Shown one piece after another: positions 24,051 to 60,935 of a stretch of 64,000 bases of DNA. The notes below the pieces were generated by a model. That model was not told the origin of the DNA and ran no database searches. It saw nothing but the letters and a program-made list of their open reading frames with translations. Every line of letters starts with the position of its first letter. Position 1 is the stretch's first letter. The DNA is from Candidatus Limnocylindria bacterium (GTDB lineage Bacteria; Chloroflexota; Limnocylindria; QHBO01): NCBI GenBank assembly GCA_038250515.1, contig JBBSCG010000001.1, positions 25,155 through 89,154 of the forward strand, read 5' to 3'. The position numbers and the translations under genes were made by a program.

Positions 24051-24054
24051 CGGG

Positions 24055-27809: not shown

Positions 27810-27812
27810 GGC

Positions 27813-28118: not shown

Positions 28119-28693
28119 CAGCCGGCTCGCTCGTCCTCTTCCGGCCGTCGGGCCAGGAAGATCGCGCCGATGATGGCGGCCAGCAGCAGCAGGCTGAGTA
28201 TCTCGAAGGGCAGGGCGTAGTCGGTGAAGAGCGCCGTGGCGAGGCCCTGCAGGTTCACGGCAACGGCAGCGGTGGCGGTGATCGTGCCCCAATCGGTCTG
28301 GAAGACGGCCCAACCGATCAATCCCACCACGATCAATGCGGCGAGCGCGGCGAACGGCACCTGGCGGTGGAACGGCGCGCGCAGGCTGGCGTCGCCGGCC
28401 TGGGTGAGCATGATCGCGAAGATGATCAGCACGCTGATGGCGCCGAGGTAGATGAGCACCTGTGCAGCGGCCACGATCGGCGCGCCGAGCAGCGCGTACA
28501 TGCCGGCCAGTGAGCCGAAGCAGACCATCATGGCGATCGCCGCGTGGATCACGTTGCGGAGGGTCACGACGGCAAGCCCACCACCGACCACACCGATGGC
28601 GAGCACAACGAACAGGACGCCGGTGATATCCAGGGTTGAACGCTCCCGTTGGAGTTTTTCGAGCGCACAGCGGCTGCCCGCGACGCAACACAA
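28118..28693 (-). CDS. nuoJ: NADH-quinone oxidoreductase subunit J
   Basis: VLFVVLAIGVVGGGLAVVTLRNVIHAAIAMMVCFGSLAGMYALLGA. The start is uncertain (TTG at 28693 or downstream). Confidence 0.7.
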   Translation of the reverse strand: MCCVAGSRCALEKLQRERSTLDITGVLFVVLAIGVVGGGLAVVTLRNVIHAAIAMMVCFGSLAGMYALLGAPIVAAAQVLIYLGAISVLIIFAIMLTQAGDASLRAPFHRQVPFAALAALIVVGLIGWAVFQTDWGTITATAAVAVNLQGLATALFTDYALPFEILSLLLLAAIIGAIFLARRPEEDERAG

Positions 28694-28767
28694 GCGGCCT
28701 GCCCGATTCTAGCGTACGGAACCCGCCGCGAGCCGCCGCCGCGCTCCCGGCGGAACGTTCGCAATTG

Positions 28768-30150: not shown

Positions 30151-30324
30151 GATCGTGTTGAACTCTCGACTCGCTATGAGCGCGCAGGTGGATCACCAGC
30201 GCGTATACCGGCTACCTTGATGTAGGAAGTATGGGTCCCTATACCGGCTACTGTCAAGGTGCAAGTAAGCCATGAACCGCGCGCTGCCCGCACGCTCATC
30301 AACTTCGACAAAGATGGGATCCGT

Positions 30325-32712: not shown

Positions 32713-32717
32713 GGTCG

Positions 32718-34085: not shown

Positions 34086-34087
34086 GC

Positions 34088-34942: not shown

Positions 34943-34958
34943 CGGTCTATTTGCGCTC

Positions 34959-35969: not shown

Positions 35970-37253
35970 CTACTTGTCGACGCCGCCCATGATCGGATCG
36001 AGGCTGGCCATGATCGCCATGGTATCGGCCAGCAGATGACCGGGCATCAGCTTCGGCATTACCTGGAGCGTGATGTAGCTGGGGTCGCGCATGCGGAACC
36101 GATACGGGTTTGGCCCGCCATCGCTGATCGCATACACGCTGTACAGGCCGCGCGGACTCTCGATCGCGGCGTAGGCGCGCCCCGGCTTCGGACGGATGAT
36201 GCCCGGCACCTGCGCCTGCACCGGGCCGTGCGGCATCCGCTCGACGATCTGGTCGATGAGGTGGATGCTCTGCTTGATCTCGGCCACGCGCTGCAGGTAC
36301 CTGGCGTAGGTGTCGCCGGCCTGCTGGGTCACGACGTCGAACTCGAGCTCGTTGTAGATCGAGTACGGGTGCGCCTTGCGCACGTCGAACGGCACGCCGC
36401 TGGCGCGCAGGTTGGGTCCAGTCACCCCCAGGTTCACTGCGTCTTTGGCGGTCAGGATGCCGAGCCCCTTGGTCCGCGCCGTGAAGATCTCGTTCTGGGT
36501 GAGTAGCAGCTCGTTGTCGCCGATGGTCTTGGCCACGTTGCTGCGCCACGTCGAGAGGCGCGAGATGAACTCATCGCTGATGTCCCAGTTCACGCCGCCG
36601 ACGCGGAAGAAGTTGAAGAGCATGCGCTGGCCGCTGATGCTCGAGAGGAGCTCGACCGTCTCGTCGCGGTTGATGAAGCCATACAGGATGGGCGTGATGC
36701 CGCCCATGTCGAGCGCCAGGAAGCCCATCATCAGGGCGTGGCTGAAGACGCGGTTGAGCTCGACCACCAGCGCCCGGATGTACTCGGCGCGCTTTGGGAC
36801 CTCGACGTCGTATAGCTTCTCGAAAGCGATCGCCGGCGCGTGCTCGTTGTGCATCGCCGACATGTAGTCCATCGGGTCGACGTAGGTCAGGACGGTGGTG
36901 TAGGTCGCGTTCTCGCACAGCTTCTCGATGCCGCGGTGCAGGTAGCCGAGCACCGGGTCGAGATCGGTGACCACCTCGCCGCGCACCTTGACCAGCAGTC
37001 GCATGACGCCGTGGGTCGAGGGGTGCTGCGGACCCATGTTGAGCAGCATCTCGCCCTCGCCGACCGAGAAGAGGCGGCGCTCACGCTCGGTCTGCGGCGG
37101 ACGATCCGGCAGGCCCACCTGTTCGAAGCCGGCGTACTCGCCCCGGCCCTCGCCGCGCGAGCCGAGGCCGGCCGCGGCGCGCAGCCGTTCCTCTTCTTGG
37201 CGGTCGAGATCGATCGGATCGGGGATGCGGACGTCGGGATCGATGGCGGTCAT
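35970..37253 (-). CDS. nuoD: NADH-quinone oxidoreductase subunit D (49 kDa) with an N-terminal extension of about 55 aa
   Basis: EMLLNMGPQHPSTHGVMRLLVKVRGEVV... and C-terminal LADTMAIMASLDPIMGGVDK match NuoD. Confidence 0.85.
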   Translation of the reverse strand: MTAIDPDVRIPDPIDLDRQEEERLRAAAGLGSRGEGRGEYAGFEQVGLPDRPPQTERERRLFSVGEGEMLLNMGPQHPSTHGVMRLLVKVRGEVVTDLDPVLGYLHRGIEKLCENATYTTVLTYVDPMDYMSAMHNEHAPAIAFEKLYDVEVPKRAEYIRALVVELNRVFSHALMMGFLALDMGGITPILYGFINRDETVELLSSISGQRMLFNFFRVGGVNWDISDEFISRLSTWRSNVAKTIGDNELLLTQNEIFTARTKGLGILTAKDAVNLGVTGPNLRASGVPFDVRKAHPYSIYNELEFDVVTQQAGDTYARYLQRVAEIKQSIHLIDQIVERMPHGPVQAQVPGIIRPKPGRAYAAIESPRGLYSVYAISDGGPNPYRFRMRDPSYITLQVMPKLMPGHLLADTMAIMASLDPIMGGVDK

Positions 37254-37849
37254 CGCGGTCGGCTCTTGTCGGCCAGCGTCTTGTCGGCCTCGACCGCGGT
37301 CTCCTCGCTGCCCGGATGGCTGCGGCCCACCGGCAGCGCTTCGCTGAAGCGCGTCAGGTCCCAGGTCTCCGGGCGCTCGAGCGGGTTCACGCCGGCGGCC
37401 GATGAGTCGGCGGCATCATCGGGCAGCAAAAAGTCGCGACGCTGCGGGAAGGATCGGTAATCGGGCGACATGAAGATGCGACGCAGGTCGGCGTTGCCCT
37501 CGAAGACGATGCCCATCATGTCGTACATCTCGCGCTCGTGGAACATGGCGCCCTCCCACAGCCCCGTGACACTCGGCGTGCGCGGGTCCTTGCGATCGAC
37601 AGGGACGCGGATGCGCAGCCAGGCAGGATGACGCTCGCTGTACAGGTGGTAGACGACCTCGAACCAGTTCTCCGGGCCGTAGTCAACGGCGGCGGCATCG
37701 GCCAGGAAGAAGAATCCGAACTCGTCGTCGTCACGCAGCCTGCGCAGCGTCTCCACGATCTGGTCGCGCGGCACCTGGACCTCGACGGTGTCCGCATCGG
37801 TCCAGAGCTGGCTGACCGCGCCCGGGAAGCGGTCGAGCAGCAGGCGCAC
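37250..37849 (-). CDS. nuoC: NADH-quinone oxidoreductase subunit C (30 kDa)
   Basis: FGFFFLADAAAVDYGPENWFEVVYHLYSERHPAWLRIRV...HEREMYDMMGIVFEG. The long ORF runs back into nuoB, so the true start (possibly GTG near 37849) is uncertain. Confidence 0.7.
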   Translation of the reverse strand: MRLLLDRFPGAVSQLWTDADTVEVQVPRDQIVETLRRLRDDDEFGFFFLADAAAVDYGPENWFEVVYHLYSERHPAWLRIRVPVDRKDPRTPSVTGLWEGAMFHEREMYDMMGIVFEGNADLRRIFMSPDYRSFPQRRDFLLPDDAADSSAAGVNPLERPETWDLTRFSEALPVGRSHPGSEETAVEADKTLADKSRPR

Positions 37850-49373: not shown

Positions 49374-50066
49374 ATGACCGCCCTGGGGCGCACCGACGCA
49401 CGGTTGGAGCATCGGCTCACGACGCCAAACGCTTCCCTGGCGGACCTTGACGCTGCGGTTGCCCTGGCCACCGAGCAGGACCTCGCCGCGCTCGTCGTCA
49501 GCCCGTGGCTGCTGCGCGCGGGACGCCGTCTGCTGGGACGCTCGCGCGTTCGGTTGGGAACCGTCGTCGGCTACGGCCACGGCGGCCAGCTGCTCAGCGT
49601 CAAGGCGTTCGAGGCGAGCAAATGTCTCGAGCAGGGCGCGACCCAGATCGACTTCGTGATGAACGGCGGAGCGCTCATCTCGGGGTTGGACGACACGGTC
49701 TCCAACGACATGCTGGCTGTGATCGACATGGCGCATTCTGCGATGGCCATCGCCGGCGTGATCATCGAGGCCGATCCGCTGCGCGACGACCTCGTGAGCA
49801 AGGCCTGCCGACTGGCGGAACGGGCAGGCGCCGACTACGTCGTCAGCTCGACCGGGGGTGCAGCGGCCAAGCGGACGATCGAGCGGGTCGGTCTGCTGCG
49901 CGACAGCGTCGGATCACGCGTCGGAGTCAAGGCCTGCGGCCGGTTCCGCTCTGCCGACGAGGTGCGGGCCGCCAACCTGGCCGGCGCGAGCGTGATCTCG
50001 GCCGAGTTCAGCGCCGACCTGCTGCGGGCCGCGCGCGACGCGGTGGCTGCCGTGGCGGTCGCCTGA
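49374..50066 (+). CDS. deoC: Deoxyribose-phosphate aldolase
   Basis: GTVVGYGHGGQLLSVKAFEASKCLEQGATQIDFVMNGGAL...ADYVVSSTGG...VGVKACGRFRS aligns with DeoC, including the Schiff-base Lys. Confidence 0.7.
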   Translation: MTALGRTDARLEHRLTTPNASLADLDAAVALATEQDLAALVVSPWLLRAGRRLLGRSRVRLGTVVGYGHGGQLLSVKAFEASKCLEQGATQIDFVMNGGALISGLDDTVSNDMLAVIDMAHSAMAIAGVIIEADPLRDDLVSKACRLAERAGADYVVSSTGGAAAKRTIERVGLLRDSVGSRVGVKACGRFRSADEVRAANLAGASVISAEFSADLLRAARDAVAAVAVA

Positions 50067-50122
50067 ACAGCGCGCGACGGCGGCATTGGTCAAGCGCAGA
50101 AACTGATACGAGGAGGCGTGGG

Positions 50123-51178
50123 TTGCGGATTCTGGTCGTCGGCGGGGCAGGGTACGTGGGCTCGACGAGCTCGGAGACGTTCATTGCCGCGGGCCATGCC
50201 GTGACCGTCTACGACAACCTGTCGACCGGGTACCGCGATGCCGTCATCCCGGGCGCGCGCCTGGTGGTGGGCGATATCCACGACGCGGCGCAGGTCGAGC
50301 GCGTGCTGCGCGACGAACGCGTAGACGCGGTACTGCATTGCGCCGCGCGGTCGCTGGTCGGCGAATCCATGGCGGATCCAGGGCTCTACTACCATAGCAA
50401 CGTCGCCGGCGGAGTCGCGCTGCTCGAGGCCATGAAGCACGCCGGCGTGACGCGCCTGGTCTACTCCTCGACCGCGGCGGTGTACGGCGAGCCGCGCCGT
50501 GTGCCGATCGCCGAGGCCGACCGCACCGAGCCGATTAATCCATACGGCGCCACCAAGCTCGCCTTCGAGGGGGCCATGCGCTGGTTCGCCGCTGCGCATG
50601 ACTTCCGCGCCATCAGCCTGCGCTACTTCAACGTGGCCGGTGCCACCCAACGCAACGGCGAGGACCACGAGCCGGAGACCCATCTCATTCCGCTGGTGCT
50701 GCGCGTGGCGGCCGGCGAGGCGAGCCACGTCCAGATCTACGGCCAGGACTACGCGACCCCCGACGGCACCTGCATTCGTGATTTCATCCACGTCCGCGAT
50801 CTCGGCAAGGCCCACCTGCTGGCGCTGGAGGCGACCGGCGAGGGTGATCCGTCGCTCGAGATCTACAACCTGGGTTCCGCGGCCGGCTTCAGCGTCCGCG
50901 AGGTGGTCGAGGCGGCGCGCAAGGTGACCGGTCGCGCCATCCCCGCGCGCGTTGTCAAGCGTCGCGTGGGTGACCCTCCGGTGCTCGTCGCGTCGTCACG
51001 CCGCGCCCGCCGCGAGCTCGGCTGGCAGCAGCAGCACAGCAAGCTCGAGGAGATGCTGGGCGACGCCTGGACCTGGCGCCTGGCACATCCAAACGGCTAT
51101 CCATCGACGGCGGCATTGGCAGAGACCGATGCCGAACGTCAGCAGGTCAGGGCCCGCGCCGTCTCCGCGCCGGCCTAG
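50123..51178 (+). CDS. galE: UDP-glucose 4-epimerase
   Basis: RILVVGGAGYVGS, YSSTAAVYG and a YxxxK region. An AGGAGG RBS lies 6 nt before the TTG start. Confidence 0.85.
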   Translation: MRILVVGGAGYVGSTSSETFIAAGHAVTVYDNLSTGYRDAVIPGARLVVGDIHDAAQVERVLRDERVDAVLHCAARSLVGESMADPGLYYHSNVAGGVALLEAMKHAGVTRLVYSSTAAVYGEPRRVPIAEADRTEPINPYGATKLAFEGAMRWFAAAHDFRAISLRYFNVAGATQRNGEDHEPETHLIPLVLRVAAGEASHVQIYGQDYATPDGTCIRDFIHVRDLGKAHLLALEATGEGDPSLEIYNLGSAAGFSVREVVEAARKVTGRAIPARVVKRRVGDPPVLVASSRRARRELGWQQQHSKLEEMLGDAWTWRLAHPNGYPSTAALAETDAERQQVRARAVSAPA

Positions 51179-52334: not shown

Positions 52335-52539
52335 GAGACGGAGTATCACGTAGCCGCGGTCGCGACGTCAAGCGGCCGGCCGTCGAGCTTTCTTCCGTGT
52401 TGGGGCTCGACGGCGCGTGAGCACGCTCCCCGTGGTAGCATCGGGGCGCTGCGCCACTTCCCGGACGTCGAGCCGCGCATCGCGCCCGCCGGGAGCGAGA
52501 AACATTCCCGCAGCGCCATTTACCATCTTCGGAGACCAC

Positions 52540-53826
52540 TTGCCCGACAACGAATCCGCCACGCAGCGGCGCCCGGCCACGCGCCGTCGCGCCCCCAGCG
52601 ACCGGCCCCGCGACACAGTTACGACCAGCGCGCCTGAGACGAACGATCACGAAGACCAGGACTCGCCGCTCCTCGCCGCGGTGCTGGCCGCGGCGCGTGG
52701 GTACACCTTCGGTGAGATTGAGATACCGGTTACCATTGCGCGCGCCCTGGAGAAGATGGCCTACGTCACGCCGACCGAGGTGCAGGCATGCGCGATTCCA
52801 CCCCTGCGCGAGGGCAAGGACCTCATCGGTCAGGCGCAGACCGGAACGGGCAAGACCGCGGCCTTCGGCATCCCCATCGTCGAGAAGATCGACCCCATGG
52901 CCGGTCATGTCCAGGCCCTGGTCCTGACGCCGACGCGCGAGCTGTGCGTGCAGGTCAGCGACGAGCTGGCGGCCATCGGTCAGTTCAGGAACGTGCAGGT
53001 GGTCGCAATCTATGGCGGATCCAGCATGGATCGCCAGATCAGCGCACTGAAGCGCGGCGCACAGGTGGTGGTCGGTACGCCCGGTCGCGTCCTGGACCTC
53101 ATCCGTCGCGGCGAGCTGCGGCTCGATCGGGTGCACACCGTGATCCTCGATGAAGCGGACCGCATGCTCGACATGGGTTTCATCGTCGACGTCGAGACGA
53201 TCCTGTCCCGATGCCCGCGGCAACGCCAGACAGCACTCTTCAGCGCCACCATGCCGTACGCCATCCTGCGCATCTGCGACCGCTTCATGGACCGCGATGC
53301 CCAGCAGATCAGCGTACGGCCCGAGCATCGGACGGTGGAGACCGTACGTCAGGTGGTGTACTTCGTCGCCGAGCAGGACAAGGTGCCCGCGCTTCTCGAG
53401 CTGACCCGCGAGCTGGAGTTTGACCGTCTGCTCGTGTTCCGCCACACCCAGATCGGCGTCGACCGGCTGGCCGCCACGCTGAAGCGGCGCGGCAAGAACG
53501 TCGCGGCGCTGCATGGTGGATTGAGCCAGCGTGAGCGCGACCACACCCTTGCCGATTTCAAGTCAGGCAAGCTCCAGTTCCTGATCGCCACCAATGTGGC
53601 GAGCCGCGGATTGGACATCACCGATCTGCCGTACGTTCTGAACTTCGACATCCCCGAGGATGCCGACACCTACGTGCATCGCGTCGGGCGGACCGCTCGC
53701 GCCGGCAAGGAAGGCACGGCCATCACGTTCGTGGGCGAGTGGGACCTGGACGCCTGGGAGTCGATCCGCTCGCAGGTCGGCGGGAAGATCACCGAGGGCG
53801 AGCTGCGCCTCTATACGGCGAGCTGA
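52540..53826 (+). CDS. DEAD-box ATP-dependent RNA helicase
   Basis: Q-motif TPTEVQ, AQTGTGKTAAF, PTRELC, DEAD (ILDEAD), SAT, HGGLSQRERD, ARGLDI and HRVGRTARAG are present. The start is uncertain (TTG 52540 or GTG 52417). Confidence 0.8.
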   Translation: MPDNESATQRRPATRRRAPSDRPRDTVTTSAPETNDHEDQDSPLLAAVLAAARGYTFGEIEIPVTIARALEKMAYVTPTEVQACAIPPLREGKDLIGQAQTGTGKTAAFGIPIVEKIDPMAGHVQALVLTPTRELCVQVSDELAAIGQFRNVQVVAIYGGSSMDRQISALKRGAQVVVGTPGRVLDLIRRGELRLDRVHTVILDEADRMLDMGFIVDVETILSRCPRQRQTALFSATMPYAILRICDRFMDRDAQQISVRPEHRTVETVRQVVYFVAEQDKVPALLELTRELEFDRLLVFRHTQIGVDRLAATLKRRGKNVAALHGGLSQRERDHTLADFKSGKLQFLIATNVASRGLDITDLPYVLNFDIPEDADTYVHRVGRTARAGKEGTAITFVGEWDLDAWESIRSQVGGKITEGELRLYTAS

Positions 53827-53880
53827 CGACCGCCCTGGTTGTGAACCTTTTACGACGGCAGCGCGTACTCTTCTCACCCC

Positions 53881-54579
53881 ATGCCTGACGCCGAGCGGCT
53901 CGCCCCGCAGAACAGCACCCGCACGAACGCCGTCATCACCAGCGTCGATTGGCTGTTCGAGCCGTCGTGGCAGGGCGAGCGGCTGCTGGCCCGGATCCGC
54001 GGCGAGCGAGTCGAGCTGACCGATCGCTTTGGCGATCCGGCCGACGCGAGCCTGGGCGAGGCCGCCGAGGTGCTCGCCCCATCGGTCGACGCCGAAGAGG
54101 CCGTGCTCGATGGGATCTGGACCGCGCAACCGTTCGTCGGCGTCGGAAGCGCCGCTTACAACCTCGCCGAGGCGTTCGCGGAGGAAGGACTGACCGATGA
54201 GCTGCCCAATCCGATCGAGAACGAGAAGCGGCGTGCGTTCGTGGCCATCGACCTGCTCGAGCTTGACGGCCAGCTGCTGCACGACGTCCCCTACCAGGAA
54301 CGCCGCCGCCTGCTCACATCGGTCGTTGACGAGAACGTGCGCGTGCGGGTCACACCCGCCGTACGGGTGCCGCTGGATCACTGGCTGCACGCCTGGCGGC
54401 AGAGTGGCTTCACGCACTACGTCGCCAAGCAGGTCAACTCGCGTTACCGGCCTGGCCAGACCTGCGAAGAGTGGCTCGAGATTCCGGCAGCTCGCGCGGC
54501 GGAACCCTCGATGGTCGGACGCCTCGTCGGGCAGCGCGGGCCGCGCCTGGCAAAGATCGGGAACGCCCAGAAGCGCTGA
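53881..54579 (+). CDS. ATP-dependent DNA ligase-like protein lacking the adenylation lysine
   Basis: DWLFEPSWQGERLLARIRGERVEL aligns with LigD/LigC DWLFEPKWDGYRVLAY, but the motif I residues K and D are replaced by S and Q. VAIDLLELDGQLLHDVPYQERRRLL and HYVAKQVNSRYRPGQTCEEWLEI match ligase motifs III to V. It is only 232 aa. Confidence 0.45.
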   Translation: MPDAERLAPQNSTRTNAVITSVDWLFEPSWQGERLLARIRGERVELTDRFGDPADASLGEAAEVLAPSVDAEEAVLDGIWTAQPFVGVGSAAYNLAEAFAEEGLTDELPNPIENEKRRAFVAIDLLELDGQLLHDVPYQERRRLLTSVVDENVRVRVTPAVRVPLDHWLHAWRQSGFTHYVAKQVNSRYRPGQTCEEWLEIPAARAAEPSMVGRLVGQRGPRLAKIGNAQKR

Positions 54580-54743
54580 GTCCCGCGGGCCTGCGTGCTA
54601 CCCTTGACGCTCCCGAGCAGCGATCGTCTCGAAGACGAATCCCGAGGAGGTCCGCCCTGACGTCCAACGCAGCCGCTCGGCCAGAGTCGGCGCTCGACGA
54701 GCAGGCCCTCGCCGAGGTCCGCCGCATCGGCAGCGCCGATCTC

Positions 54744-55967
54744 ATGGTCGGCATCCCCAGCTTCGGCAACGCCGAAACGATCGGCTATGTCGTGCGCGCC
54801 GCGACGGCCGGCATGGTGCAGTACTTTCCGGATCTGAAGCCGATCTTGGTCAACTCCGACGGCGGCTCACCGGACGACACGCCGCGCGTCGCCATCAGCA
54901 CCGAGAGCCCTGAGTACATCGAGAAGATCATCCTGATCAGCCCGCGCCACAAGCTGCAGCGGATCAGCTTCACCTACCAGGGAATCAGCGGCAAGGGCAC
55001 GGCGGTGCGCGCCCTGTTCGAGGTGGCGCGCGAGCTGAAGGTCAAGGCCATGGTCATGGTCGACTCGGATCTGCGCAGCATCGTGCCCGAATGGGTGGAG
55101 CTCCTGGCCGGACCGATCCTCAAGGGTGGCTACGACTTCGTCGCGCCGCTCTATGCGCGCTACAAGTACGACGGCACGATCACCAACAACATCACCTATC
55201 CGCTGACCCGGGCGCTCTACGGTGCACGCATTCGCCAGCCGATCGGCGGCGACTTCGCGATCAGCGGCGACTTGGTGAGCCGCTACCTGGAGCTCGATAC
55301 CTTCGACGAGCAGACCGCGCGGTTCGGGATCGACATCTGGATGACGCATTCGGCGATCAATGAAGGCTTCGCCGTCTGCCAGGCGCGACTGGGCGCCAAG
55401 ATCCACGATGCCAAGGATCCGGCGTCGGACCTGGGACCGATGTTCCGCCAGGTGGTCGGCACGCTCTTTCGGTTGGCCGGCCAGTATCAGGACCGCTGGC
55501 TGCGCGTCCGCGGCTCGCACGCGATCCCCGAGTACGGTTTCGAGCGAGTGGTGGCGCCCGAGGCGATCGAGGTCAGCCACGCCAAGCTGATCGACACGCT
55601 CGAGGGCTCGCGGCCGACGAATCGCGACACCTGGGTGCAGATGCTCGCGCCAGAGCAACTGGAGCGGGTCATGACCCTCGAATGCGGGGATCCCGCCACG
55701 TTCCACTTTCCCGCTGAGCTGTGGGTGCGCTGCCTGTACGACACGCTCGTCGCCTTTCACGCGCCTGGCGCGGAGCGCGACAGGCTCCTGGCGGCGCTGA
55801 CGCCGCTCTACTTCGGACGGGTGGCGGGCTTCATCGGTGAGACGATCGAGATGAGCAGTGACCAGGCCGAGCGCGTGATCGATGCACAGGCGCGCGAGTT
55901 TGAGGAGCTCAAGCCGTATCTCGTCGTCCGTTGGCGCGAGATGCAGGTCGGGGTGGACGGCCGCTGA
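54744..55967 (+). CDS. GT78-like glycosyltransferase (mannosylglycerate/glucosylglycerate synthase-like)
   Basis: GKGTAVRALF, VMVDSDLRSIVPEWV, YDFVAPLYARYKYDGTITNNITYPLTRALYG and IRQPIGGDF align with Rhodothermus/plant-type MgS (GKGDGMNTAL, FYDADITSFGPDWI, QPLGGE). The start is taken at ATG 54744. Confidence 0.5.
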   Translation: MVGIPSFGNAETIGYVVRAATAGMVQYFPDLKPILVNSDGGSPDDTPRVAISTESPEYIEKIILISPRHKLQRISFTYQGISGKGTAVRALFEVARELKVKAMVMVDSDLRSIVPEWVELLAGPILKGGYDFVAPLYARYKYDGTITNNITYPLTRALYGARIRQPIGGDFAISGDLVSRYLELDTFDEQTARFGIDIWMTHSAINEGFAVCQARLGAKIHDAKDPASDLGPMFRQVVGTLFRLAGQYQDRWLRVRGSHAIPEYGFERVVAPEAIEVSHAKLIDTLEGSRPTNRDTWVQMLAPEQLERVMTLECGDPATFHFPAELWVRCLYDTLVAFHAPGAERDRLLAALTPLYFGRVAGFIGETIEMSSDQAERVIDAQAREFEELKPYLVVRWREMQVGVDGR

Positions 55968-57952
55968 TGCCGCCAAAGCCCAAGGAGCCGTACCGCATCC
56001 TGCTGCCGCTCGCCAACCCGCGTACGGCGCGCGACCTCGTGCGCATCGGGTCGGGCATCAGCAACGGCCGGCCGACGCAGATCACCGCGCTCGGCGTCGT
56101 CGAGGTGCCGGAGGGCGTTTCGCTGTCGGAGGGCGCCACGCAGGCACGCACTTCGCGGCGATTGCTGCAGCGCGTGCTCGACTTCGGGGACGAGGAAGGC
56201 GTCGCCATTCGAACGATGGTGCGCATCGGCCGTCACGCGGCGGACGGCGTGATCGAGGCCGTTGCCGAGGAGCGCGCCGACCTGGTGATCTTCGGCTGGG
56301 GCGGTCCGCCGACAGCCAGCCAGACCGCGCGCGCGGCCGCCGAGGCCATCGAAAAGCGCCTCTCCGGCGCAACGCTCAGCGACCCGCCGGTCTTCACAGA
56401 GACGATCGACAGGGTGGTCCGCGAATCGCCGTGCGATATCGCGGTCGTCAAGCAGCGCGGCCTGGACAAGGTCGATTCGATCCTGGTGCCGGTGCGCGGC
56501 GGCCCGCACGCCGAGCTTGCCGTGCGCCTGGCACGCGACCTCGGGAAGCGCTTCGACGCCCAGATCGCGGTGCTCCACGTCGTGCCGAAGGGGATCGGTG
56601 ATCGGGCGCTCCAGCGCGAGCGCCAGGCGCTCGAGCGCTTCATCGAGCAGCACGGCGGCGCGCGACGGGTGAAGGGCCTGATCCGCGAGGCCGTATCGGT
56701 CAAGACGGCGATCGTGCGCGAGGCGTTGAACCACGATCTGGTGATCATGGGTGCCGCGGCGCAGCCGTCGGATGCGCGCCCGGCGTCGGACGGCAGGTAC
56801 CTGTTCGGATCGGTACCGGAAGCAGTCGCCAGCCGTGCCAGGCCGACGGTGATCGTGGTCAAGACCAAGCAGCAGCTGGGAATGGCGACGTTCGAGCAAC
56901 TGCGGGCTGCGGAGGGCACGCTCGCCGAGGCCGATGCCTTTGTCGAACGCAGCCGCTCACTGCCGAGCCTCGTTGACAAGTGGTTCGCCGAGAACACCTT
57001 CCACGCCTCCGAGTTCAAGCACATCGGGAAGCTGGTGGAGCTCAAACAGAAGCAGGGGCTGACGATCTCGGTGGGCCTGCCGGCGCTCAACGAGGAGAAG
57101 ACGATCGGCCTGGTGATCAAGCGCATCAAGGGCGCGCTGATGGATCGGTTCCCCTTGATCGACCAGATGGTGGTGATCGACTCCGACTCGACCGACCGGA
57201 CCGCGGACATCGCGACGGAGCTTGGCGTGCCGGTCGTGCGCCACAGCCAGATTCTGTCAGGCTCGGGCAGCTTCGTCGGCAAGGGCGAGGCGCTGTGGAA
57301 GAGCCTGCACGAGCTCGATGGCGACATCGTCGCCTGGATCGACACCGACATCAGCAACATCCAGCCGCGTTTCGTCTTCGGGCTGCTCGGGCCGCTGCTG
57401 CGCGAGCCGCGCATCCAGTACGTGAAGGGCTTCTATCAGCGCCCGATCAGGCAGGGGCTCAAGCTCGTGCCTGAAGGCGGCGGGCGCGTCACCGAGCTGA
57501 TGGCCCGACCGCTCATCAACCTGTTCTTCCCCGAGCTGTCGGGCATGATCCAGCCGCTGTCCGGCGAATACGCCGGGCGGCGCTCGCTGCTCGAGTCGCT
57601 GCCGTTCTTCACCGGCTACGCGGTCGAGACGGGCCTGCTCATCGACATTCTCGAGTCCGAGGGGCTCTCGGCGCTGGGCCAGGTCGACCTCGAGCGGCGC
57701 ATCCATCGCAACCAGTCGCTGCCGAACCTGTCACAGATGAGCTTTGTCATCCTGCAGGCGGCCATCCGCAAGCTCGAAGAGCGCCACCGCATCCAGCTGC
57801 TGACCGAGGTCGGCCATGGCATGAAGCTGATCCACCAGGAGGGCGGCTCTTTCAGCCTGGCCGTCCGCGAGATCGGCGACCAGATGCGGCCTCCGATCAA
57901 GTCGCTGGCGGCCTACCAGGAGAAGCGCAAGGCGCTGAAGGCAGGCCGATGA
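55967..57952 (+). CDS. gpgS: Tandem universal-stress-protein (USP) domains fused to glucosyl-3-phosphoglycerate synthase (GT81)
   Basis: N-terminal two USP folds (ILLPLANPRTARDL...DLVIFGWGG and ILVPVRGGPHAELAVR...FGSVPEAVASRARPTVIVVK). The C-terminus ISVGLPALNEEKTIG...VVIDSDSTDRTADIA...GKGEALWKSL...GGGRVTELMARPL...QPLSGEYAGRR aligns with mycobacterial GpgS throughout. The ATG overlaps the upstream stop (TGATG). Confidence 0.75.
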   Translation: MPPKPKEPYRILLPLANPRTARDLVRIGSGISNGRPTQITALGVVEVPEGVSLSEGATQARTSRRLLQRVLDFGDEEGVAIRTMVRIGRHAADGVIEAVAEERADLVIFGWGGPPTASQTARAAAEAIEKRLSGATLSDPPVFTETIDRVVRESPCDIAVVKQRGLDKVDSILVPVRGGPHAELAVRLARDLGKRFDAQIAVLHVVPKGIGDRALQRERQALERFIEQHGGARRVKGLIREAVSVKTAIVREALNHDLVIMGAAAQPSDARPASDGRYLFGSVPEAVASRARPTVIVVKTKQQLGMATFEQLRAAEGTLAEADAFVERSRSLPSLVDKWFAENTFHASEFKHIGKLVELKQKQGLTISVGLPALNEEKTIGLVIKRIKGALMDRFPLIDQMVVIDSDSTDRTADIATELGVPVVRHSQILSGSGSFVGKGEALWKSLHELDGDIVAWIDTDISNIQPRFVFGLLGPLLREPRIQYVKGFYQRPIRQGLKLVPEGGGRVTELMARPLINLFFPELSGMIQPLSGEYAGRRSLLESLPFFTGYAVETGLLIDILESEGLSALGQVDLERRIHRNQSLPNLSQMSFVILQAAIRKLEERHRIQLLTEVGHGMKLIHQEGGSFSLAVREIGDQMRPPIKSLAAYQEKRKALKAGR

Positions 57953-59115
57953 GGCTGCTCATCGCCCCCGACTCGTTCGGTGGCGCGCTCGATTCGGTGC
58001 AGGCGGCCGATGCGATCGCTCGCGGCTGGACGAACGTCCGCGCCGGCGACGAGATCACGCTTCGACCGATGGCCGATGGCGGCGAGGGAACGCTCGCCGC
58101 GCTTGCCTGCGCACTCGGATCGGACGCGGAGCGCCGGATGGCCTCGGTTCTCGATCCTCTGGGCCGGCAGATCGATGCTGACTGGCTGCTGCTCGATGGC
58201 GGGAAGTCCGCGTTTGTCGAGCTGGCTGCGGCCTCGGGCTTGGCGCGGCTGGATGTCGACGAGCGCTCGTCGCAATCAGCGGCCGTGGCATCGACTCGCG
58301 GCACCGGCCAGCTGGTTATGGCCGCGCTCGATGCCGGCGTGCAGCGCATCACCCTGGGCCTCGGTGGTTCAGCGACCACGGATGGCGGCACCGGGCTGCT
58401 TGCCGCGCTCGGCGTTCGCTTTCTCGACAGCAAGGGTGCGGAGCTGCTCGACGGCGGCGCAGCGCTGGCGAAGCTCGACCGAATCGACGCCTCGAACCTC
58501 GAGCCGCGCCTCGCGTCGGTGGCGTTGATTGTCGCCTCGGACGTCAAGAACACGCTGGTCGGCTCGAGTGGCGCGGCCGCAACCTACGGGCCGCAGAAGG
58601 GCGCCGATCCGACCATGGTCGAGCAGTTGGACGCGGCGCTGGCGCACTACGGCCAGCGCATCGAGCGGGCGACGGGGCGCCTGGTTGCGGACCTGCCCGG
58701 CTCTGGCGCGGCCGGCGGGACGACGGCGGGGCTCATGGGCTTCACCCGCGCAGTGCTGAGGACGGGTTCCGAGGTGGTTGCCGAGCTGGTCGGGTTGCCG
58801 GCAGCACTCGAGGCGGCCGAGCTCGTCATCACGGGCGAGGGGCGAGCGGACGAACAGACCCTGCAGGGCAAGGCCGCGATGAGTGTGGCAACGCTGGCAC
58901 GGGCGCGGAACACGCCGGTGGTGTTGCTGTGCGGCGGCGTGGGTGCCGGAGCTGAGGCGCTGGACGTCGTGGGCGCGATCACCGTGGTGCAACCGATCGT
59001 CGACCGCCCGCTGAGCCTGGAGGAGGCGATGGCCCATACGGCTCGGCTGCTCGAGGCGGCGGGCGGGCGCCTGGCGCGGACCGTCGGCATCGGTCTCGAC
59101 CTGGCCCGGCGCTAG
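57949..59115 (+). CDS. Glycerate kinase (GlxK/GarK family)
   Basis: MRLLIAPDSFGGALDSVQAADAIARGW...ADGGEGT...GLGGSATTDGGTGLLAALG matches the family. ATGA overlap with gpgS. Confidence 0.8.
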   Translation: MRLLIAPDSFGGALDSVQAADAIARGWTNVRAGDEITLRPMADGGEGTLAALACALGSDAERRMASVLDPLGRQIDADWLLLDGGKSAFVELAAASGLARLDVDERSSQSAAVASTRGTGQLVMAALDAGVQRITLGLGGSATTDGGTGLLAALGVRFLDSKGAELLDGGAALAKLDRIDASNLEPRLASVALIVASDVKNTLVGSSGAAATYGPQKGADPTMVEQLDAALAHYGQRIERATGRLVADLPGSGAAGGTTAGLMGFTRAVLRTGSEVVAELVGLPAALEAAELVITGEGRADEQTLQGKAAMSVATLARARNTPVVLLCGGVGAGAEALDVVGAITVVQPIVDRPLSLEEAMAHTARLLEAAGGRLARTVGIGLDLARR

Positions 59116-59128
59116 GCGGCCGCACGGC

Positions 59129-59950
59129 GTGGCGAAGCGCAGGGGGCCGAGCCCGCAGAAGCTGGCCGCTGATCGGCGTCGGCGTCGAGCCAGGATTGAT
59201 GTCGTGCTCGAACGCCTCGGTGAGCGGTACGAGGATCCGCGCTGGGCCGGTTCGCGACTCGATCCGGTGAGCGAGCTGGTGCTCACCATCCTGGCGCAGA
59301 ACACTGCGGACGTGAATTCGCATCGGGCCTTCGTCCTCCTGCGCGAGCGATACCCGACCTGGGACGCTGTGCTGGCCGCACCGACCGACGAGCTGACGGA
59401 CGTGATCCGGCCGGGTGGCCTGGCGCCGACCAAGGCTCCGCGCATCCAGCATGTGCTGGCCGAGATCCTCGATGCGCGTGGCGATTTCGACCTGGCATTC
59501 CTCGCCTCGCTGCCGGTCGAGGCGGCGCGCGAGTGGCTGACCGCGCTTCCCGGCATCGGGCGTAAGACGGCATCCATTGTCCTGATGTTCTGCTTTGGCA
59601 TGCCGGCCCTGCCGGTGGACACCCACGTCTTCCGAGTCGCGCAGCGCCTGGGACTGCTGCCTCCGAAGGCTGATCTCGCCAAGGCGCACGACCTTCTCGA
59701 AGCCTCGCTGCAGCCGGATGAGATGTACCCGTTTCACGTCGAGCTGATCCGCCACGGCCGCGACACGTGTCGTGCGCCTCGACCGATCTGCTCGATCTGC
59801 CCGCTGACCAATGTGTGCGACTACTATCGGCTCGTCGCGGCAGGCAAAGCACCGGCGGCGCCGCCACCCCGCGAGCCGCTGACCGAGCGGACGCCGCGCT
59901 ACCACGACGAGCTGATCCACGGCTGGGAGCCACCGGAGGCCGATAGATGA
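59129..59950 (+). CDS. nth: Endonuclease III-family HhH-GPD DNA glycosylase with 4Fe-4S cluster
   Basis: HhH LPGIGRKTASIVL, catalytic region VDTHVFRV and the C-terminal cluster loop CRAPRPICSICPLTNVC. The start is uncertain (GTG). Confidence 0.7.
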   Translation: MAKRRGPSPQKLAADRRRRRARIDVVLERLGERYEDPRWAGSRLDPVSELVLTILAQNTADVNSHRAFVLLRERYPTWDAVLAAPTDELTDVIRPGGLAPTKAPRIQHVLAEILDARGDFDLAFLASLPVEAAREWLTALPGIGRKTASIVLMFCFGMPALPVDTHVFRVAQRLGLLPPKADLAKAHDLLEASLQPDEMYPFHVELIRHGRDTCRAPRPICSICPLTNVCDYYRLVAAGKAPAAPPPREPLTERTPRYHDELIHGWEPPEADR

Positions 59951-59984: not shown

Positions 59985-60935
59985 ATGAGCCTTCAATTTC
60001 GGCGGGGAAGGGGCAACGCCAGGCCGTTCACCGCGGCCCTAATCGTCCTCCTCGTGATAGCTGCGATCCTGCTGTTCCTGTGGCTCGGTCGCGGCGAGCA
60101 ACCACCGCCTGCGCGCCCGTCAGCGGCGGTGCCTTCGGCGTCGCCATCGCCAACGCTGAACGCGGAGCTGCTGCACGCGCGCCTGACCGTCCTTGTCATC
60201 GGCACCGACGTCAACCAGTCGCGGGCAGCCGCCGGCGCGCCGGTCAACACCGACAGCCTGATGCTGGCCAGCATCAATGCCGATCAGTCGGAGGTGACCC
60301 TCGTCGGCCTGCCACGTGATACCACGGATATTCCGCTGCCCGATGGTGGCAGGTGGGACCGCAAGGTCAATGCCATCGAGCGCGAGAAAGGCGTCGAGGC
60401 GTTTGTCGCCGCCATGTCGCAGCTGTTCGGCGTGCCGATTGACGGTTACGTGCAGGTTGACATGGACGGTCTTTCGGCGCTCGTCGACGCCGTCCAGGGC
60501 CTCGAGGTGAATCCGGACAAGCCACTTGCCGACCCGAAGGTCAGTCTCGACATCCCGGCGGGGAGGCAGACGCTCGACGGCCCGCACGCATTGGCATACT
60601 CGCGCACGCGCATCGACACTGACTACGGTCGTGCGGCTCGCCAGCAGGAGGTCGTGCTTGCCCTTGTCGCCAAGCTCGTCTCTCGCGAAACCGATGTCGA
60701 CGTCGCCTCCCTGCTCGCTGGCCTCGAGTCGCTCAAGACCAACCTGCCCCTCGGCGACCTGCCGACGTTGCTCGAGATCGGTCACCGAGCACAATCGGCC
60801 GATGTCACACGGCAGGTGCTCAAGCCGCCGCAGTTCATCACCTTTGAAGGCGACCGGGGGGACGGGCGTGGCTACATCCTGGAGCCGGACATCAAGGCGA
60901 TCCGCGTCTATATGCAGCAACAGGTCGGCGACTAG
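59985..60935 (+). CDS. LytR-CpsA-Psr (LCP) family cell-envelope polymer transferase
   Basis: An N-terminal TM, then TDSLMLASINADQSEVTLVGLPRDT...GVPIDGYVQVDMDGLSALVDAVQGLEV, which is the LCP core. Confidence 0.75.
   Translation: MSLQFRRGRGNARPFTAALIVLLVIAAILLFLWLGRGEQPPPARPSAAVPSASPSPTLNAELLHARLTVLVIGTDVNQSRAAAGAPVNTDSLMLASINADQSEVTLVGLPRDTTDIPLPDGGRWDRKVNAIEREKGVEAFVAAMSQLFGVPIDGYVQVDMDGLSALVDAVQGLEVNPDKPLADPKVSLDIPAGRQTLDGPHALAYSRTRIDTDYGRAARQQEVVLALVAKLVSRETDVDVASLLAGLESLKTNLPLGDLPTLLEIGHRAQSADVTRQVLKPPQFITFEGDRGDGRGYILEPDIKAIRVYMQQQVGD

What the first reader, a model, noticed from the sequence alone, without database searches (positions are those of the whole stretch)
54744..59115. Compatible-solute cluster: GT78-like synthase, USP-GpgS fusion and glycerate kinase
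Three translationally coupled genes are present. The first is a plant/Rhodothermus-type GT78-like glycosyltransferase. The second is a glucosyl-3-phosphoglycerate synthase (GT81, strong full-length match) carrying two N-terminal universal-stress-protein domains. The third is a glycerate kinase that could recycle glycerate to phosphoglycerate. A USP tandem fused directly to GpgS suggests that nucleotide or stress sensing is built into synthesis of glucosylglycerate or a mannosyl analogue. Combining a GT78 and a GT81 enzyme in one operon is unusual and fits organisms that make mannosylglycerate or glucosylglycerate osmolytes, or the MGLP precursor.
Basis: partly seen in the sequence, partly recalled or inferred. 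Interest (0 to 1): 0.6.

Follow-up and report, generated by a model that had tools for sequence, protein, structure and literature searches.

The report
Glucosylglycerate synthesis cluster with stress-domain fusion
A soil Chloroflexota genome carries a tightly packed three-gene module for making the protective sugar-acid glucosylglycerate (or a close analogue); the parts are known kinds, but one enzyme is fused to two stress-protein domains and its partner looks like mannosylglycerate synthase, and neither arrangement has been studied.

Summary
The three genes are real. They overlap as TGATG and ATGA.

- **Gene 2** is a genuine fusion of two USP domains and a GT81 GpgS. NCBIfam GpgS scores 368 bits against a cutoff of 262.
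- **Gene 3** is a class-I glycerate kinase.

The gene 1–gene 2 pair is adjacent in 79/79 Candidatus Limnocylindria loci. Elsewhere the two are fused in both orders, once with the USP domains included. Distant homologues sit beside GpgS, GpgP, MscS-like channels and a non-homologous glycerate kinase.

The pairing is therefore recurrent, not unusual. USP–GpgS fusions fill about 60 of the 150 best 50%-identity clusters. The canonical USP ATP-binding motif is absent. No GpgP lies in the window.

Verdict: a new variant of a known compatible-solute system, of moderate interest.

The parts
54645..54650 (+). Shine-Dalgarno AGGAGG, 6 nt upstream of the gene 1 CTG start
   Evidence: Read directly from the sequence. 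A GGAG, GAGG or AGGA motif lies within 18 nt upstream of the equivalent codon in 66 of 68 related loci.
54657..55967 (+). Gene 1: 436-aa MGS-fold, GgS-like glycosyltransferase starting at a non-canonical CTG. A GT-A domain spans about residues 26-290 and a helical C-terminal domain about residues 305-436.
   Evidence: Searches support the start. Searches show weak GT2 and GpgS sequence similarity. The AF2 model has pLDDT 85.7. Its best structural match is MGS/GT78 at full length. JGI names 15 of the 120 close homologues and 3 of the 120 distant ones 'glucosylglycerate synthase'. K113, the D136-S137-D138 motif, R168, T174-I175-T176 and H250 are invariant across 64 family members.
55967..57952 (+). 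Gene 2: 661-aa fusion protein of USP, USP and GpgS (GT81)
   Evidence: P0121 is 100% identical.
55991..56461 (+). First USP-like domain of gene 2 (approximate, residues about 9-165)
   Evidence: Pfam Usp reports two stretches. The conserved motifs LGVVEVP, ADL..W and PPCD recur across 41 diverse fusions. There is no G-2x-G-9x-G(S/T) motif.
56474..56863 (+). Second USP domain of gene 2 (residues about 170-299)
   Evidence: This is the best Pfam PF00582 stretch, at 182-311 in the 673-aa ORF numbering. PVRGGP, HDLVV.GA and VKT are conserved. The ATP motif is degenerate, reading GAAA with 14 residues before GS.
56972..57907 (+). GT81 GpgS/MpgS catalytic domain of gene 2
   Evidence: NF010496 scores 368 bits against a cutoff of 262. 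Identity is 44% to R. xylanophilus MpgS 3f1y and 43% to M. hassiacum GpgS. The GKGEA, DTD, GGGRVTE, GEYAG and IHRN motifs are retained.
57949..59115 (+). Gene 3: class-I glycerate kinase (GlxK/GarK family), 388 aa
   Evidence: PF02595 scores 411 bits and TIGR00045 scores 391 bits against a cutoff of 168. It falls below the equivalog cutoffs for both the 2-kinase and the 3-kinase, so the product isomer is unknown.

Best explanation
This is a hexosyl-glycerate compatible-solute module, most likely for glucosylglycerate (GG), in an uncultured soil Chloroflexota of the class Candidatus Limnocylindria.

Gene 2 makes glucosyl- (or mannosyl-) 3-phosphoglycerate from an NDP-sugar and 3-phosphoglycerate. 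Its catalytic GT81 domain is controlled or scaffolded by an N-terminal tandem USP module. A phosphatase encoded elsewhere then releases the free solute.

Gene 1 is a two-domain enzyme with the mannosylglycerate-synthase fold. It is the counterpart of the single-step glucosylglycerate synthase GgS, and it glycosylates free D-glycerate directly. It is made from a weak CTG start. It is translationally coupled to gene 2, and the two proteins probably act as a unit.

Gene 3, the glycerate kinase, links the free-glycerate and phosphoglycerate pools. It would return glycerate from GG turnover to 3-PG or 2-PG.

Shown here: the domain identities, the fold, the conserved adjacency, the fusions, and the recurrent neighbours.

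Inferred: the donor and acceptor specificities, the regulatory role of the USP tandem, the direction of flux through the kinase, and any physical complex.
For: Family and fold assignments:
- Gene 2 exceeds the curated GpgS cutoff, and all GT81 motifs are intact.
- Gene 3 is an unambiguous glycerate kinase.
- The gene 1 GT-A domain is homologous to GpgS (hhalign probability 98%, E 1.7e-13).

Acceptor-site clues in gene 1:
- It keeps the DxD motif, the GKG lysine, the metal-binding histidine, and the I-T pair. That pair aligns with GpgS V186/T187 and MGS I138/T139, which bind the glycerate carboxylate (PMC2581804).
- The GpgS 'GGGR' arginine becomes an invariant Thr, and 'HRN' becomes 'HDA'. This is consistent with a non-phosphorylated acceptor.
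- JGI names 18 homologues 'glucosylglycerate synthase'.

Linkage between gene 1 and gene 2:
- The gap between them is -12 to +30 nt (median 3) in 79/79 Limnocylindria loci.
- Rosetta-stone fusions exist in both orders: 7 are g1-GpgS and 10 are GpgS-g1 among 120 distant homologues. One further protein reads g1-USP-USP-GpgS (P0243).

Independent contexts in other phyla:
- GpgS (Methanococcoides type), then an MPGP-family phosphatase, then a g1 homologue, then an MscS-like channel (L086, L089).
- A g1 homologue followed by an MscS-like channel (L084, L088); a g1-GpgS fusion followed by an MscS-like channel (L087).
- A g1-GpgS fusion, then a HAD phosphatase, beside a non-homologous DUF4147/MOFRL glycerate kinase (L090).

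Literature:
- GgS makes GG from ADP-glucose and D-glycerate (PMC3736172).
- Glycerate kinase, GpgS and GpgP frequently accompany GG phosphorylase genes (PMC7178133).
Against: - No enzyme activity was tested. The GgS label therefore rests on JGI names, fold and context.
- Fusing two supposedly alternative routes into one polypeptide is odd. It may mean the enzymes act sequentially rather than in parallel.
- No GpgP was found in the 64-kb window.
- Gene 2 is equally similar to a dual MpgS/GpgS (44%) and to a strict GpgS (43%). Gene 1 has the MGS fold. Mannose is therefore not excluded.
- The link to gene 3 is looser. In 12 of 66 informative loci, unrelated genes (ECF sigma factor, EAL protein, formate-THF ligase, peptidase) sit between gene 2 and gene 3. 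Gene 3 also always travels with an unrelated HhH-GPD gene.
- The kinase would consume the proposed substrate of gene 1.
- The USP domains lack the canonical ATP-binding motif.
Confidence: 0.6

Rival explanations
1. Sequential pathway. Gene 1 is not an alternative GG synthase. It is a second-step glycosyltransferase that adds a hexose to GPG or GG made by gene 2. The product would be a di-hexosyl-glycerate such as glucosylglucosylglycerate or mannosylglucosylglycerate. Gene 1 would then be a GT-A analogue of the MggA and MggS enzymes.
For: - Fusions of g1-like and GpgS domains occur in both orders, and there is one triple fusion.
- The 1-nt overlap and the near-zero gap in 79/79 loci are typical of consecutive steps or of a complex.
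- P. marina accumulates glucosyl-glucosylglycerate as well as GG (reference 61 in PMC5381378).
- MGG pathways that extend GPG exist (PMC3736172).
Against: - The best structural match is a single-step glycerate glycosyltransferase.
- The carboxylate-binding I-T pair is retained, and the basic residues of GpgS are lost.
- JGI assigns the name GgS.
- Many family members stand alone beside only an MscS-like gene, with no GpgS within 6-7 kb (L084, L088).
- In GpgS fusions to other glycosyltransferases, the partner carries GT4-type Pfam domains in P0300's neighbours, or a GT4 gene sits beside the fusion (L090). A separate second-step enzyme therefore already exists there.
Confidence: 0.17
2. Mannosylglycerate module. 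Both transferases use GDP-mannose. Gene 2 acts as an MpgS of the GT81 type, as in Rubrobacter. Gene 1 acts as an MGS-like single-step enzyme. The solute is mannosylglycerate rather than GG.
For: - The best PDB sequence hit for gene 2 is R. xylanophilus MpgS (264 bits, 44% identity).
- The best structural match for gene 1 is MGS.
- Pfam MGS_GT hits 37 of 64 family members.
Against: - Gene 2 passes the curated GpgS equivalog model and is 43% identical to strict GpgS enzymes.
- The Rubrobacter enzyme has dual substrate specificity (title of reference 17 in PMC3736172).
- Gene 1 shares only 16-18% identity with MGS, and its GT-A domain is closer in sequence to GpgS (24-27%).
- JGI names point to GG.
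- One homologue sits next to glycogen and ADP-glucose metabolism genes (L088).
Confidence: 0.13
3. Polysaccharide primer. As in mycobacteria, GG made here primes an intracellular methylglucose-lipopolysaccharide-like polymer rather than serving as a free osmolyte.
For: - GpgS initiates MGLP synthesis in mycobacteria (PMC2581804, PMC3240985).
- As in mycobacteria, no GpgP is linked to the cluster.
Against: - No methyltransferase, acyltransferase or extending glucosyltransferase lies in the flanks. The neighbours are a DEAD-box helicase, a ligase-domain protein, an HhH-GPD glycosylase and a LytR-family protein.
- In other phyla the g1 family is paired with MscS-like channels and MPGP-type phosphatases. 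That is the signature of an osmolyte system.
Confidence: 0.05

Closest known systems
Persephonella marina ggs-gpgS-gpgP locus (single-step GgS, EC 2.4.1.268, plus the two-step GpgS/GpgP pathway)
   Same: - A GgS-like glycosyltransferase is encoded next to a GPG synthase.
- JGI labels members of the gene 1 family 'glucosylglycerate synthase'.
- Distant g1 homologues lie in GpgS-GpgP-g1 clusters (L086, L089).
- GgS condenses ADP-glucose with D-glycerate (PMC3736172).
   Different: - Here GpgS is the GT81 (actinobacterial/Rubrobacter) type and carries a tandem USP N-terminus.
- No GpgP is linked, and a glycerate kinase is attached.
- Gene 1 starts at a conserved CTG.
- Direct sequence comparison with P. 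marina GgS could not be done.
Rhodothermus marinus mannosylglycerate synthase (MGS, CAZy GT78; PDB 2bo4, 2y4j)
   Same: - The DxD motif, the metal-binding His and the I-T carboxylate-binding pair are retained.
   Different: - Identity is only 16-18%.
- MGS is not found by sequence or profile search of the PDB.
- Pfam MGS_GT does not hit the window protein.
- The donor is probably glucose rather than mannose.
GT81 glucosyl-/mannosyl-3-phosphoglycerate synthases (M. tuberculosis Rv1208, M. hassiacum GpgS, R. xylanophilus MpgS)
   Same: The catalytic domain of gene 2 is 43-44% identical to these enzymes, with all motifs intact. It scores above the NCBIfam equivalog cutoff.
   Different: - About 330 extra N-terminal residues form two USP-like domains that the characterised enzymes lack.
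- No paper in the searchable library holds both 'glucosyl-3-phosphoglycerate synthase' and 'universal stress protein'.
GG catabolic and recycling clusters around glucosylglycerate phosphorylase (GGaP, GH13_18)
   Same: Glycerate kinase, GpgS and GpgP are reported as frequent neighbours of GGaP (PMC7178133). One metagenomic protein, P0284, fuses GT4, GpgS and a C-terminal extension that I read by eye as sucrose-phosphorylase-like; JGI names the whole protein glucosylglycerate phosphorylase.
   Different: No phosphorylase or hydrolase is present in this cluster or its flanks.

Membership tests
GT81 glucosyl-3-phosphoglycerate synthase (gene 2 C-terminal domain) | Full-length match to the curated GpgS equivalog model, above its cutoff | tested here: met
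   NF010496 scores 368 bits against a cutoff of 262, covering profile positions 5-305 of 307.
GT81 glucosyl-3-phosphoglycerate synthase (gene 2 C-terminal domain) | Catalytic motifs: P-G-K-G lysine, DxD, the GGGRVTE acceptor loop, GEYA, and the metal-binding His in HRN | tested here: met
   GKGEA, DTD, GGGRVTEL, SGEYAG and IHRN all align to 3f1y and 7pdo. Residue roles are taken from PMC2581804.
GT81 glucosyl-3-phosphoglycerate synthase (gene 2 C-terminal domain) | Uses NDP-glucose (rather than GDP-mannose) with 3-PGA | not testable with these tools
   Identity is 44% to the dual MpgS/GpgS of Rubrobacter and 43% to strict GpgS. An enzyme assay is needed.
Universal stress protein family, ATP-binding (UspFG/MJ0577-type) class (gene 2 N-terminus) | Match to Pfam PF00582, with two domains | tested here: met
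   PF00582 scores 64.6 bits with 2 stretches. The architecture is conserved in about 60 of the 150 representative clusters.
Universal stress protein family, ATP-binding (UspFG/MJ0577-type) class (gene 2 N-terminus) | Nucleotide-binding motif G-2x-G-9x-G(S/T) | tested here: not met
   USP1 has no such motif. USP2 reads GAAA followed by 14 residues and then GS. Across 41 diverse fusions only the last Gly is conserved. The motif definition is from my own knowledge.
CAZy GT78 / mannosylglycerate synthase (gene 1) | Sequence membership: Pfam MGS_GT PF21969 above its gathering score, or a detectable sequence match to MGS | tested here: not met
   The window protein gets no PF21969 hit at E<=1. MGS is absent from PDB sequence and profile hits at E<=10. 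However, 37 of 64 family members hit PF21969 at E<=0.01, two of them above the 27-bit cutoff.
CAZy GT78 / mannosylglycerate synthase (gene 1) | MGS fold: a GT-A domain plus a C-terminal alpha-helical domain | tested here: met
   [not shown]
CAZy GT78 / mannosylglycerate synthase (gene 1) | GDP-mannose plus D-glycerate gives mannosylglycerate | not testable with these tools
   An enzyme assay is required.
Glucosylglycerate synthase GgS (EC 2.4.1.268) (gene 1) | Orthology to the characterised P. marina and Petrotoga mobilis GgS | tested here: inconclusive
   The reference sequences could not be retrieved. The genome scan was saturated by Limnocylindria, afdb50 was unavailable, and the paper is not held. 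The support is indirect: JGI names 15 close and 3 distant homologues 'glucosylglycerate synthase'.
Glucosylglycerate synthase GgS (EC 2.4.1.268) (gene 1) | Genomic association with GPG synthase and phosphatase genes | tested here: met
   Gene 1 is adjacent to GpgS in 79/79 loci. GpgS-GpgP-g1 clusters occur in L086 and L089. A g1-GpgS fusion followed by a HAD phosphatase occurs in L090. There are 17 fusions among 120 distant homologues.
Glucosylglycerate synthase GgS (EC 2.4.1.268) (gene 1) | ADP-glucose plus D-glycerate gives GG | not testable with these tools
   An enzyme assay is required. The sequence hint is that the I175-T176 carboxylate-binding pair is retained, while the GpgS Arg of 'GGGR' is an invariant Thr.
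Class-I glycerate kinase (GlxK/GarK, PF02595) (gene 3) | Full-length match above the curated cutoffs | tested here: met
   PF02595 scores 410.6 bits over profile positions 2-371 of 372. TIGR00045 scores 391 bits against a cutoff of 168. The 2-kinase and 3-kinase equivalog models fall below their cutoffs, so the product isomer is unknown.

The most novel reading that the evidence does not exclude
The MGS-fold enzyme and GpgS are not two alternative routes. They form one physically coupled machine. Three observations point that way: fusions in both orders, a g1-USP-USP-GpgS triple fusion, and near-zero spacing in 79/79 loci. In this reading the tandem, non-ATP-type USP module acts as a ligand- or stress-gated switch. 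Gene 1 either extends GPG or GG to a di-hexosyl-glycerate, or channels glycerate and 3-PGA into a single product. That would revise the 'two independent pathways for GG' view. It would also reveal a post-translational control point for compatible-solute synthesis in one of the most abundant uncultured soil lineages.
Probability: 0.2. Interest if true: 0.65.

Novelty: new variant of a known kind. Interest (0 to 1): 0.45.

Why it matters
Glucosylglycerate protects cells against salt stress and nitrogen scarcity, and in mycobacteria it primes MGLP synthesis. Its synthesis has been characterised in only a handful of cultured organisms.

This module is near-universal in Candidatus Limnocylindria, a dominant uncultured soil Chloroflexota class. 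The genome scan found 549 relatives of gene 1, and the 80 best loci kept were at 82-93% identity. That points to GG (or an analogue) as a core stress trait of these soil bacteria.

Two features give concrete experiments:

1. The USP-USP-GpgS fusion fills dozens of 50%-identity clusters yet is absent from the literature I could search. It is a candidate built-in regulator of osmolyte synthesis.
2. Repeated fusion of the GgS-like enzyme with GpgS challenges the idea that these are merely redundant routes.

The MGS-like fold of the GgS family also links GT78 and GT81 in evolution.

Tried and rejected
- The first AF2 run for gene 1 used a shallow alignment at 81-89% identity and gave pLDDT 46.7. 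I discarded it. A 64-sequence alignment that included homologues at 43-48% identity fixed the problem.
- The single genome-contig scan was saturated by Limnocylindria. All 80 kept loci were at least 82% identical, so no cultured reference such as Persephonella or Petrotoga was reached.
- The afdb50 fold library was unavailable. The GgS paper PMC1913396 is not held. A direct comparison with characterised GgS was therefore impossible.
- The look-up of encoding contigs had no record for the identical protein P0121.
- I initially considered MggA, the mannosylglucosyl-3-phosphoglycerate synthase, as the identity of gene 1. I rejected it because gene 1 is GT-A/MGS-like. The glycosyltransferases found fused or adjacent to GpgS in other lineages that look like second-step enzymes carry GT4-type Pfam domains. 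That MggA itself is GT4 is my recollection, and I did not test it.
- Search for a phosphatase: a tblastn with an MPGP-type GpgP found nothing. A motif scan for HAD and histidine-phosphatase signatures found only a trehalose-phosphatase at 20078-20902.
- The promoter and terminator scan of 53800-59400 was uninformative. It found 0 promoters, and the 2 terminator-like sites match the number expected by chance.
- A tblastn of gene 1 against plasmids found only distant paralogues at 25-29% identity in Halorussus and Bacillus thuringiensis, in unrelated contexts.
- The 22.5-37.4 kb stretch is a nuo (complex I) operon, not a solute island.
- I checked by eye for a KdpD-style c-di-AMP motif (SxS-X20-FTAxY, from memory) in USP1. 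It is not conserved across the family.
Full report
**Observation**

The window is about 68% G+C. Between 54.4 and 59.1 kb, three plus-strand ORFs follow one another.

The gene 1 stop (TGA, 55965-55967) shares its last base with the gene 2 ATG (55967). The gene 2 stop and gene 3 start overlap as ATGA at 57949-57952.

The flanks carry unrelated genes:
- a DEAD-box helicase (52417-53826)
- a small ATP-dependent ligase-domain protein (53881-54579)
- an HhH-GPD glycosylase (59129-59950)
- a LytR-family protein (59985-60935)

The three-gene unit is therefore real and discrete.

**Gene 2**

Pfam finds two USP stretches and a GT2-type domain. NCBIfam's GpgS equivalog model NF010496 scores 368 bits against a cutoff of 262, over essentially the whole profile.

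The best solved relatives are R. xylanophilus MpgS (3f1y, 264 bits, 44% identity over 285 columns) and M. hassiacum GpgS (205 bits, 43%). The GKGEA, DTD, GGGRVTE, GEYAG and IHRN motifs are all present.

A 100% identical 661-aa protein exists in NCBI (P0121). The 120 best homologues are all 643-668 aa with the same Pfam pair. NCBI labels them Candidatus Limnocylindria or Chloroflexota GpgS.

An exhaustive HMMER search of 1.84 billion 50%-identity representatives returned 4,761 relatives. I classified the best 150 by local phmmer. About 60 are USP(+USP)+GpgS proteins of roughly 590-680 aa at 34-52% identity, and 51 are GpgS alone.

The fusion is therefore genuine, old and widespread. It is not a frameshift artefact, and it is not peculiar to this genome. 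No paper in the searchable library holds both 'glucosyl-3-phosphoglycerate synthase' and 'universal stress protein'.

Across 41 diverse fusions the conserved USP residues are LGVVEVP, ADL..W, PPCD, PVRGGP, HDLVV.GA and VKT. The canonical ATP-binding G-2x-G-9x-G(S/T) motif is not conserved in either domain. Nucleotide sensing remains a guess.

**Gene 3**

This is a class-I glycerate kinase. PF02595 scores 411 bits and TIGR00045 scores 391 bits. It falls below the equivalog cutoffs for both the 2-kinase and the 3-kinase, so the product isomer is open.

**Gene 1: the start**

The preceding 29 residues (LTSNAAARPESALDEQALAEVRRIGSADL) are conserved in homologues. They form a confident helix in the structural model.

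No ATG, GTG or TTG lies between the upstream stop (54579) and 54744.

In 68 related loci:
- The 87 nt upstream of the ATG show coding periodicity, with 415/305/799 differences at codon positions 1/2/3.
- The 33 nt before that show none (475/433/472).
- The boundary codon is CTG in 59 loci and GTG in 2.
- A GAGGAGG-type Shine-Dalgarno precedes it in 66.
- 24 loci have no canonical start at all within 40 codons.

Gene 1 therefore most likely initiates at CTG 54657, behind AGGAGG at 54645-54650.

**Gene 1: the family**

By sequence the protein is poorly classified:
- Pfam gives only a sub-threshold GT2 hit (18 bits).
- NCBIfam gives a sub-threshold GpgS hit (51 bits).
- The only PDB sequence hits are mycobacterial GpgS, at E about 1e-6.
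- A profile-profile comparison with a GpgS alignment gives probability 98%, E 1.7e-13 and 24% identity over 229 columns.

A first AF2 model from near-identical homologues was unusable, with pLDDT 47. I then recovered distant family members at 43-48% identity from Nitrospirota and Thermodesulfobacteriota MAGs. The new model reached pLDDT 85.7.

- Foldseek gives E 1.7e-14 with about 410 columns and TM 0.63-0.75. The match covers both the GT-A domain and the C-terminal helical domain.

Pfam MGS_GT (PF21969) hits 37 of the 64 aligned family members. Two exceed the 27-bit cutoff. The window protein itself is not hit.

The published GpgS structure paper already notes that MGS is a very close structural neighbour of GpgS (PMC2581804).

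JGI names 15 of the 120 closest homologues and 3 of the distant ones 'glucosylglycerate synthase'. GgS is the single-step enzyme that condenses ADP-glucose with D-glycerate (PMC3736172).

Invariant residues across the family include the GKG lysine, D136-S137-D138, R168, T174-I175-T176 and H250. The I-T pair aligns with GpgS V186/T187, which PMC2581804 equates with MGS I138/T139. These residues bind the acceptor carboxylate (PMC2581804). The GpgS 'GGGR' arginine and the 'HRN' motif are replaced by an invariant Thr and by 'HDA'. I read this, as an inference, as fitting a non-phosphorylated acceptor.

**Linkage**

The genome scan found 549 relatives of gene 1. The 80 best loci are all Limnocylindria-type MAGs at 82-93% identity.

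- Genes 1 and 2 are adjacent in 79/79 loci, with a gap of -12 to +30 nt (median 3).
- Gene 1 is the most conserved gene of the neighbourhood, at median 84% identity. Gene 2 is at 77% and gene 3 at 68%.
- Gene 3 follows within 150 nt in 34 of 66 informative loci.
- In 12 loci, 1.5-2.3 kb of unrelated genes are inserted before gene 3. These include an ECF sigma/anti-sigma pair, an EAL protein, formate-THF ligase and an M28 peptidase.

Because the wider synteny (helicase, ligase domain, HhH-GPD) is also conserved in this class, adjacency within the class proves little on its own. The decisive evidence comes from outside it.

First, there are Rosetta-stone fusions:
- P0243 (1061 aa) reads g1-like, USP, USP, GpgS.
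- P0314 and P0349 read g1-like then GpgS.
- P0265 reads GpgS then g1-like.
- Among 120 distant g1 homologues, 7 are g1-GpgS fusions and 10 are GpgS-g1 fusions.

Second, there are independent gene contexts:
- L086 and L089 carry a Methanococcoides-type GpgS (NF040724, 376 bits), an MPGP-family phosphatase (TIGR02461, 253 bits against a cutoff of 244), a LapA-domain gene, the g1 homologue and an MscS-like channel.
- L084 and L088 pair the stand-alone g1 homologue with the same MscS-like gene, and L087 pairs a g1-GpgS fusion with it. In L088 the pair sits next to glycogen genes.
- L090 has a GT4 gene, a g1-GpgS fusion, a HAD phosphatase, and on the opposite strand a DUF4147/MOFRL glycerate kinase. 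That kinase is a non-homologous replacement of gene 3.

Published work independently reports glycerate kinase, GpgS and GpgP as frequent neighbours of glucosylglycerate phosphorylase (PMC7178133).

**Mechanism proposed**

- The GT81 domain of gene 2 makes glucosyl- (or mannosyl-) 3-phosphoglycerate under the control of its USP tandem.
- An unlinked phosphatase finishes the solute. None is in the window. Mycobacterial GpgP is a histidine-phosphatase type rather than the HAD type (PMC3240985); that its gene is also unlinked to gpgS is my own recollection, not checked here.
- Gene 1 glycosylates free D-glycerate directly.
- The kinase connects the glycerate and phosphoglycerate pools, plausibly for recycling after solute breakdown.
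- Tight coupling and the repeated fusions suggest that the two transferases work as a unit.
- The conserved weak CTG start would set a low, fixed translation rate for gene 1. Through coupling it may also affect gene 2.

Only the identities, the fold and the linkage are shown here. Specificities, regulation and flux direction are inferred.

**Rivals**

- Gene 1 could be a second-step transferase acting on GPG or GG. The fusions favour this. The MGS-like acceptor site, the JGI names and the stand-alone family members argue against it.
- The module could make mannosylglycerate. Gene 2 is as close to Rubrobacter MpgS as to strict GpgS, and gene 1 has the MGS fold.
- GG could serve as a polysaccharide primer. 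No tailoring genes are present, and MscS-like partners occur elsewhere.

**Novelty and interest**

Every part belongs to a known kind, and a ggs-gpgS locus is known from P. marina (my recollection of Fernandes 2007; PMC5381378 Table 2 lists P. marina as the only GG producer with a GgS).

What is new:
- the USP-USP-GpgS architecture, which is common in metagenomes and, as far as I could search, undescribed
- the MGS-fold assignment of the GgS-like family
- the recurrent fusion of that family with GpgS
- the conserved CTG start
- the near-universal presence of the module in an abundant uncultured soil class

A 2026 comparative-genomics paper on these Chloroflexota lineages does not mention glucosylglycerate, compatible solutes or USP.

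I rate this a new variant of a known kind, of moderate interest.

Noticed in passing
window 54645-54659; equivalent positions in L004-L083: Gene 1 appears to use a conserved non-canonical CTG start behind a strong GAGGAGG Shine-Dalgarno. The codon is CTG in 59 of 68 related loci, and the SD is present in 66 of 68. Coding periodicity begins exactly at the CTG. 24 of 68 loci have no ATG, GTG or TTG within 40 codons. Gene callers either truncate the protein at the internal ATG or extend it upstream.
   Followed up: yes
window 20078-20902 (+) and 20975-22612 (-): A second compatible-solute pathway lies about 33 kb upstream. It comprises trehalose-phosphatase OtsB (TIGR00685, 140 bits, cutoff 68) and a divergently oriented OtsA-like trehalose-6-phosphate synthase (TIGR02400, 303 bits, below its cutoff of 565).
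   Followed up: partly
L084 8290-8994; L086 8266-8976; L087 8280-8969; L088 7308-8009; L089 7258-7977 and 10581-11291: In Nitrospirota and Thermodesulfobacteriota-type MAGs, the gene 1 homologue is almost always followed immediately by a small (about 230-aa) MscS-like protein (PF05552; NF033912, 93 bits). L089 carries two tandem copies of the transferase-channel pair. No such gene flanks the Limnocylindria cluster.
   Followed up: partly
L090 9219-10478 (-): Next to a g1-GpgS fusion and a HAD phosphatase lies a DUF4147/MOFRL protein, which is a class-II glycerate kinase family. This looks like a non-homologous displacement of the class-I kinase seen in the window.
   Followed up: partly
proteins P0284 (1383 aa), P0300 and P0319 (about 750 aa), P0351, P0356 and P0381 (about 700-750 aa): Other GpgS fusions occur in metagenomes. 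The extra N- or C-terminal parts were read by eye from the sequences, not scanned against Pfam. They look like: GT4-like then GpgS then a sucrose-phosphorylase-like part (JGI calls the whole protein glucosylglycerate phosphorylase); GT4-like then GpgS; and GpgS then GT4-like. GpgS seems to be a hub for domain fusion with both synthetic and catabolic partners.
   Followed up: no
L010, L037, L038, L046, L047, L051, L069 (between the gene 2 and gene 3 homologues): In 12 of 66 related loci, 1.5-2.3 kb of unrelated genes are inserted between GpgS and the glycerate kinase. These include an ECF sigma/anti-sigma pair, a PAS-EAL protein, formate-tetrahydrofolate ligase and an M28 peptidase. This junction is an insertion hotspot.
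   Followed up: partly
window 22587-37415 (-): This stretch is a NADH:quinone oxidoreductase (complex I, nuo) operon. It includes three Proton_antipo_M subunits, NuoJ, NuoH, 49-kDa and 51-kDa subunits, plus a large Fer2/Fer4/Pyr_redox_2 fusion protein of 943 aa. It appears ordinary apart from that fusion.
   Followed up: no
plasmid hits H3-H13 (for example HM037272.1 50315-50995; NC_017202.1): The GT-A domain of gene 1 has 25-28% identical relatives annotated as glycosyltransferases on Bacillus thuringiensis and B. mycoides plasmids. There is also a full-length 29% relative on a Halorussus salilacus plasmid, next to a SAM-dependent methyltransferase. The contexts are unrelated to glucosylglycerate.
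   Followed up: partly
window 49505-51178 (+): The longest ORF for the NAD-dependent epimerase/dehydratase is 557 aa, but the Pfam domain starts at residue 209. The homologue in L001 is 347 aa. The real start is probably about 200 codons downstream, a typical high-GC ORF over-extension.
   Followed up: no
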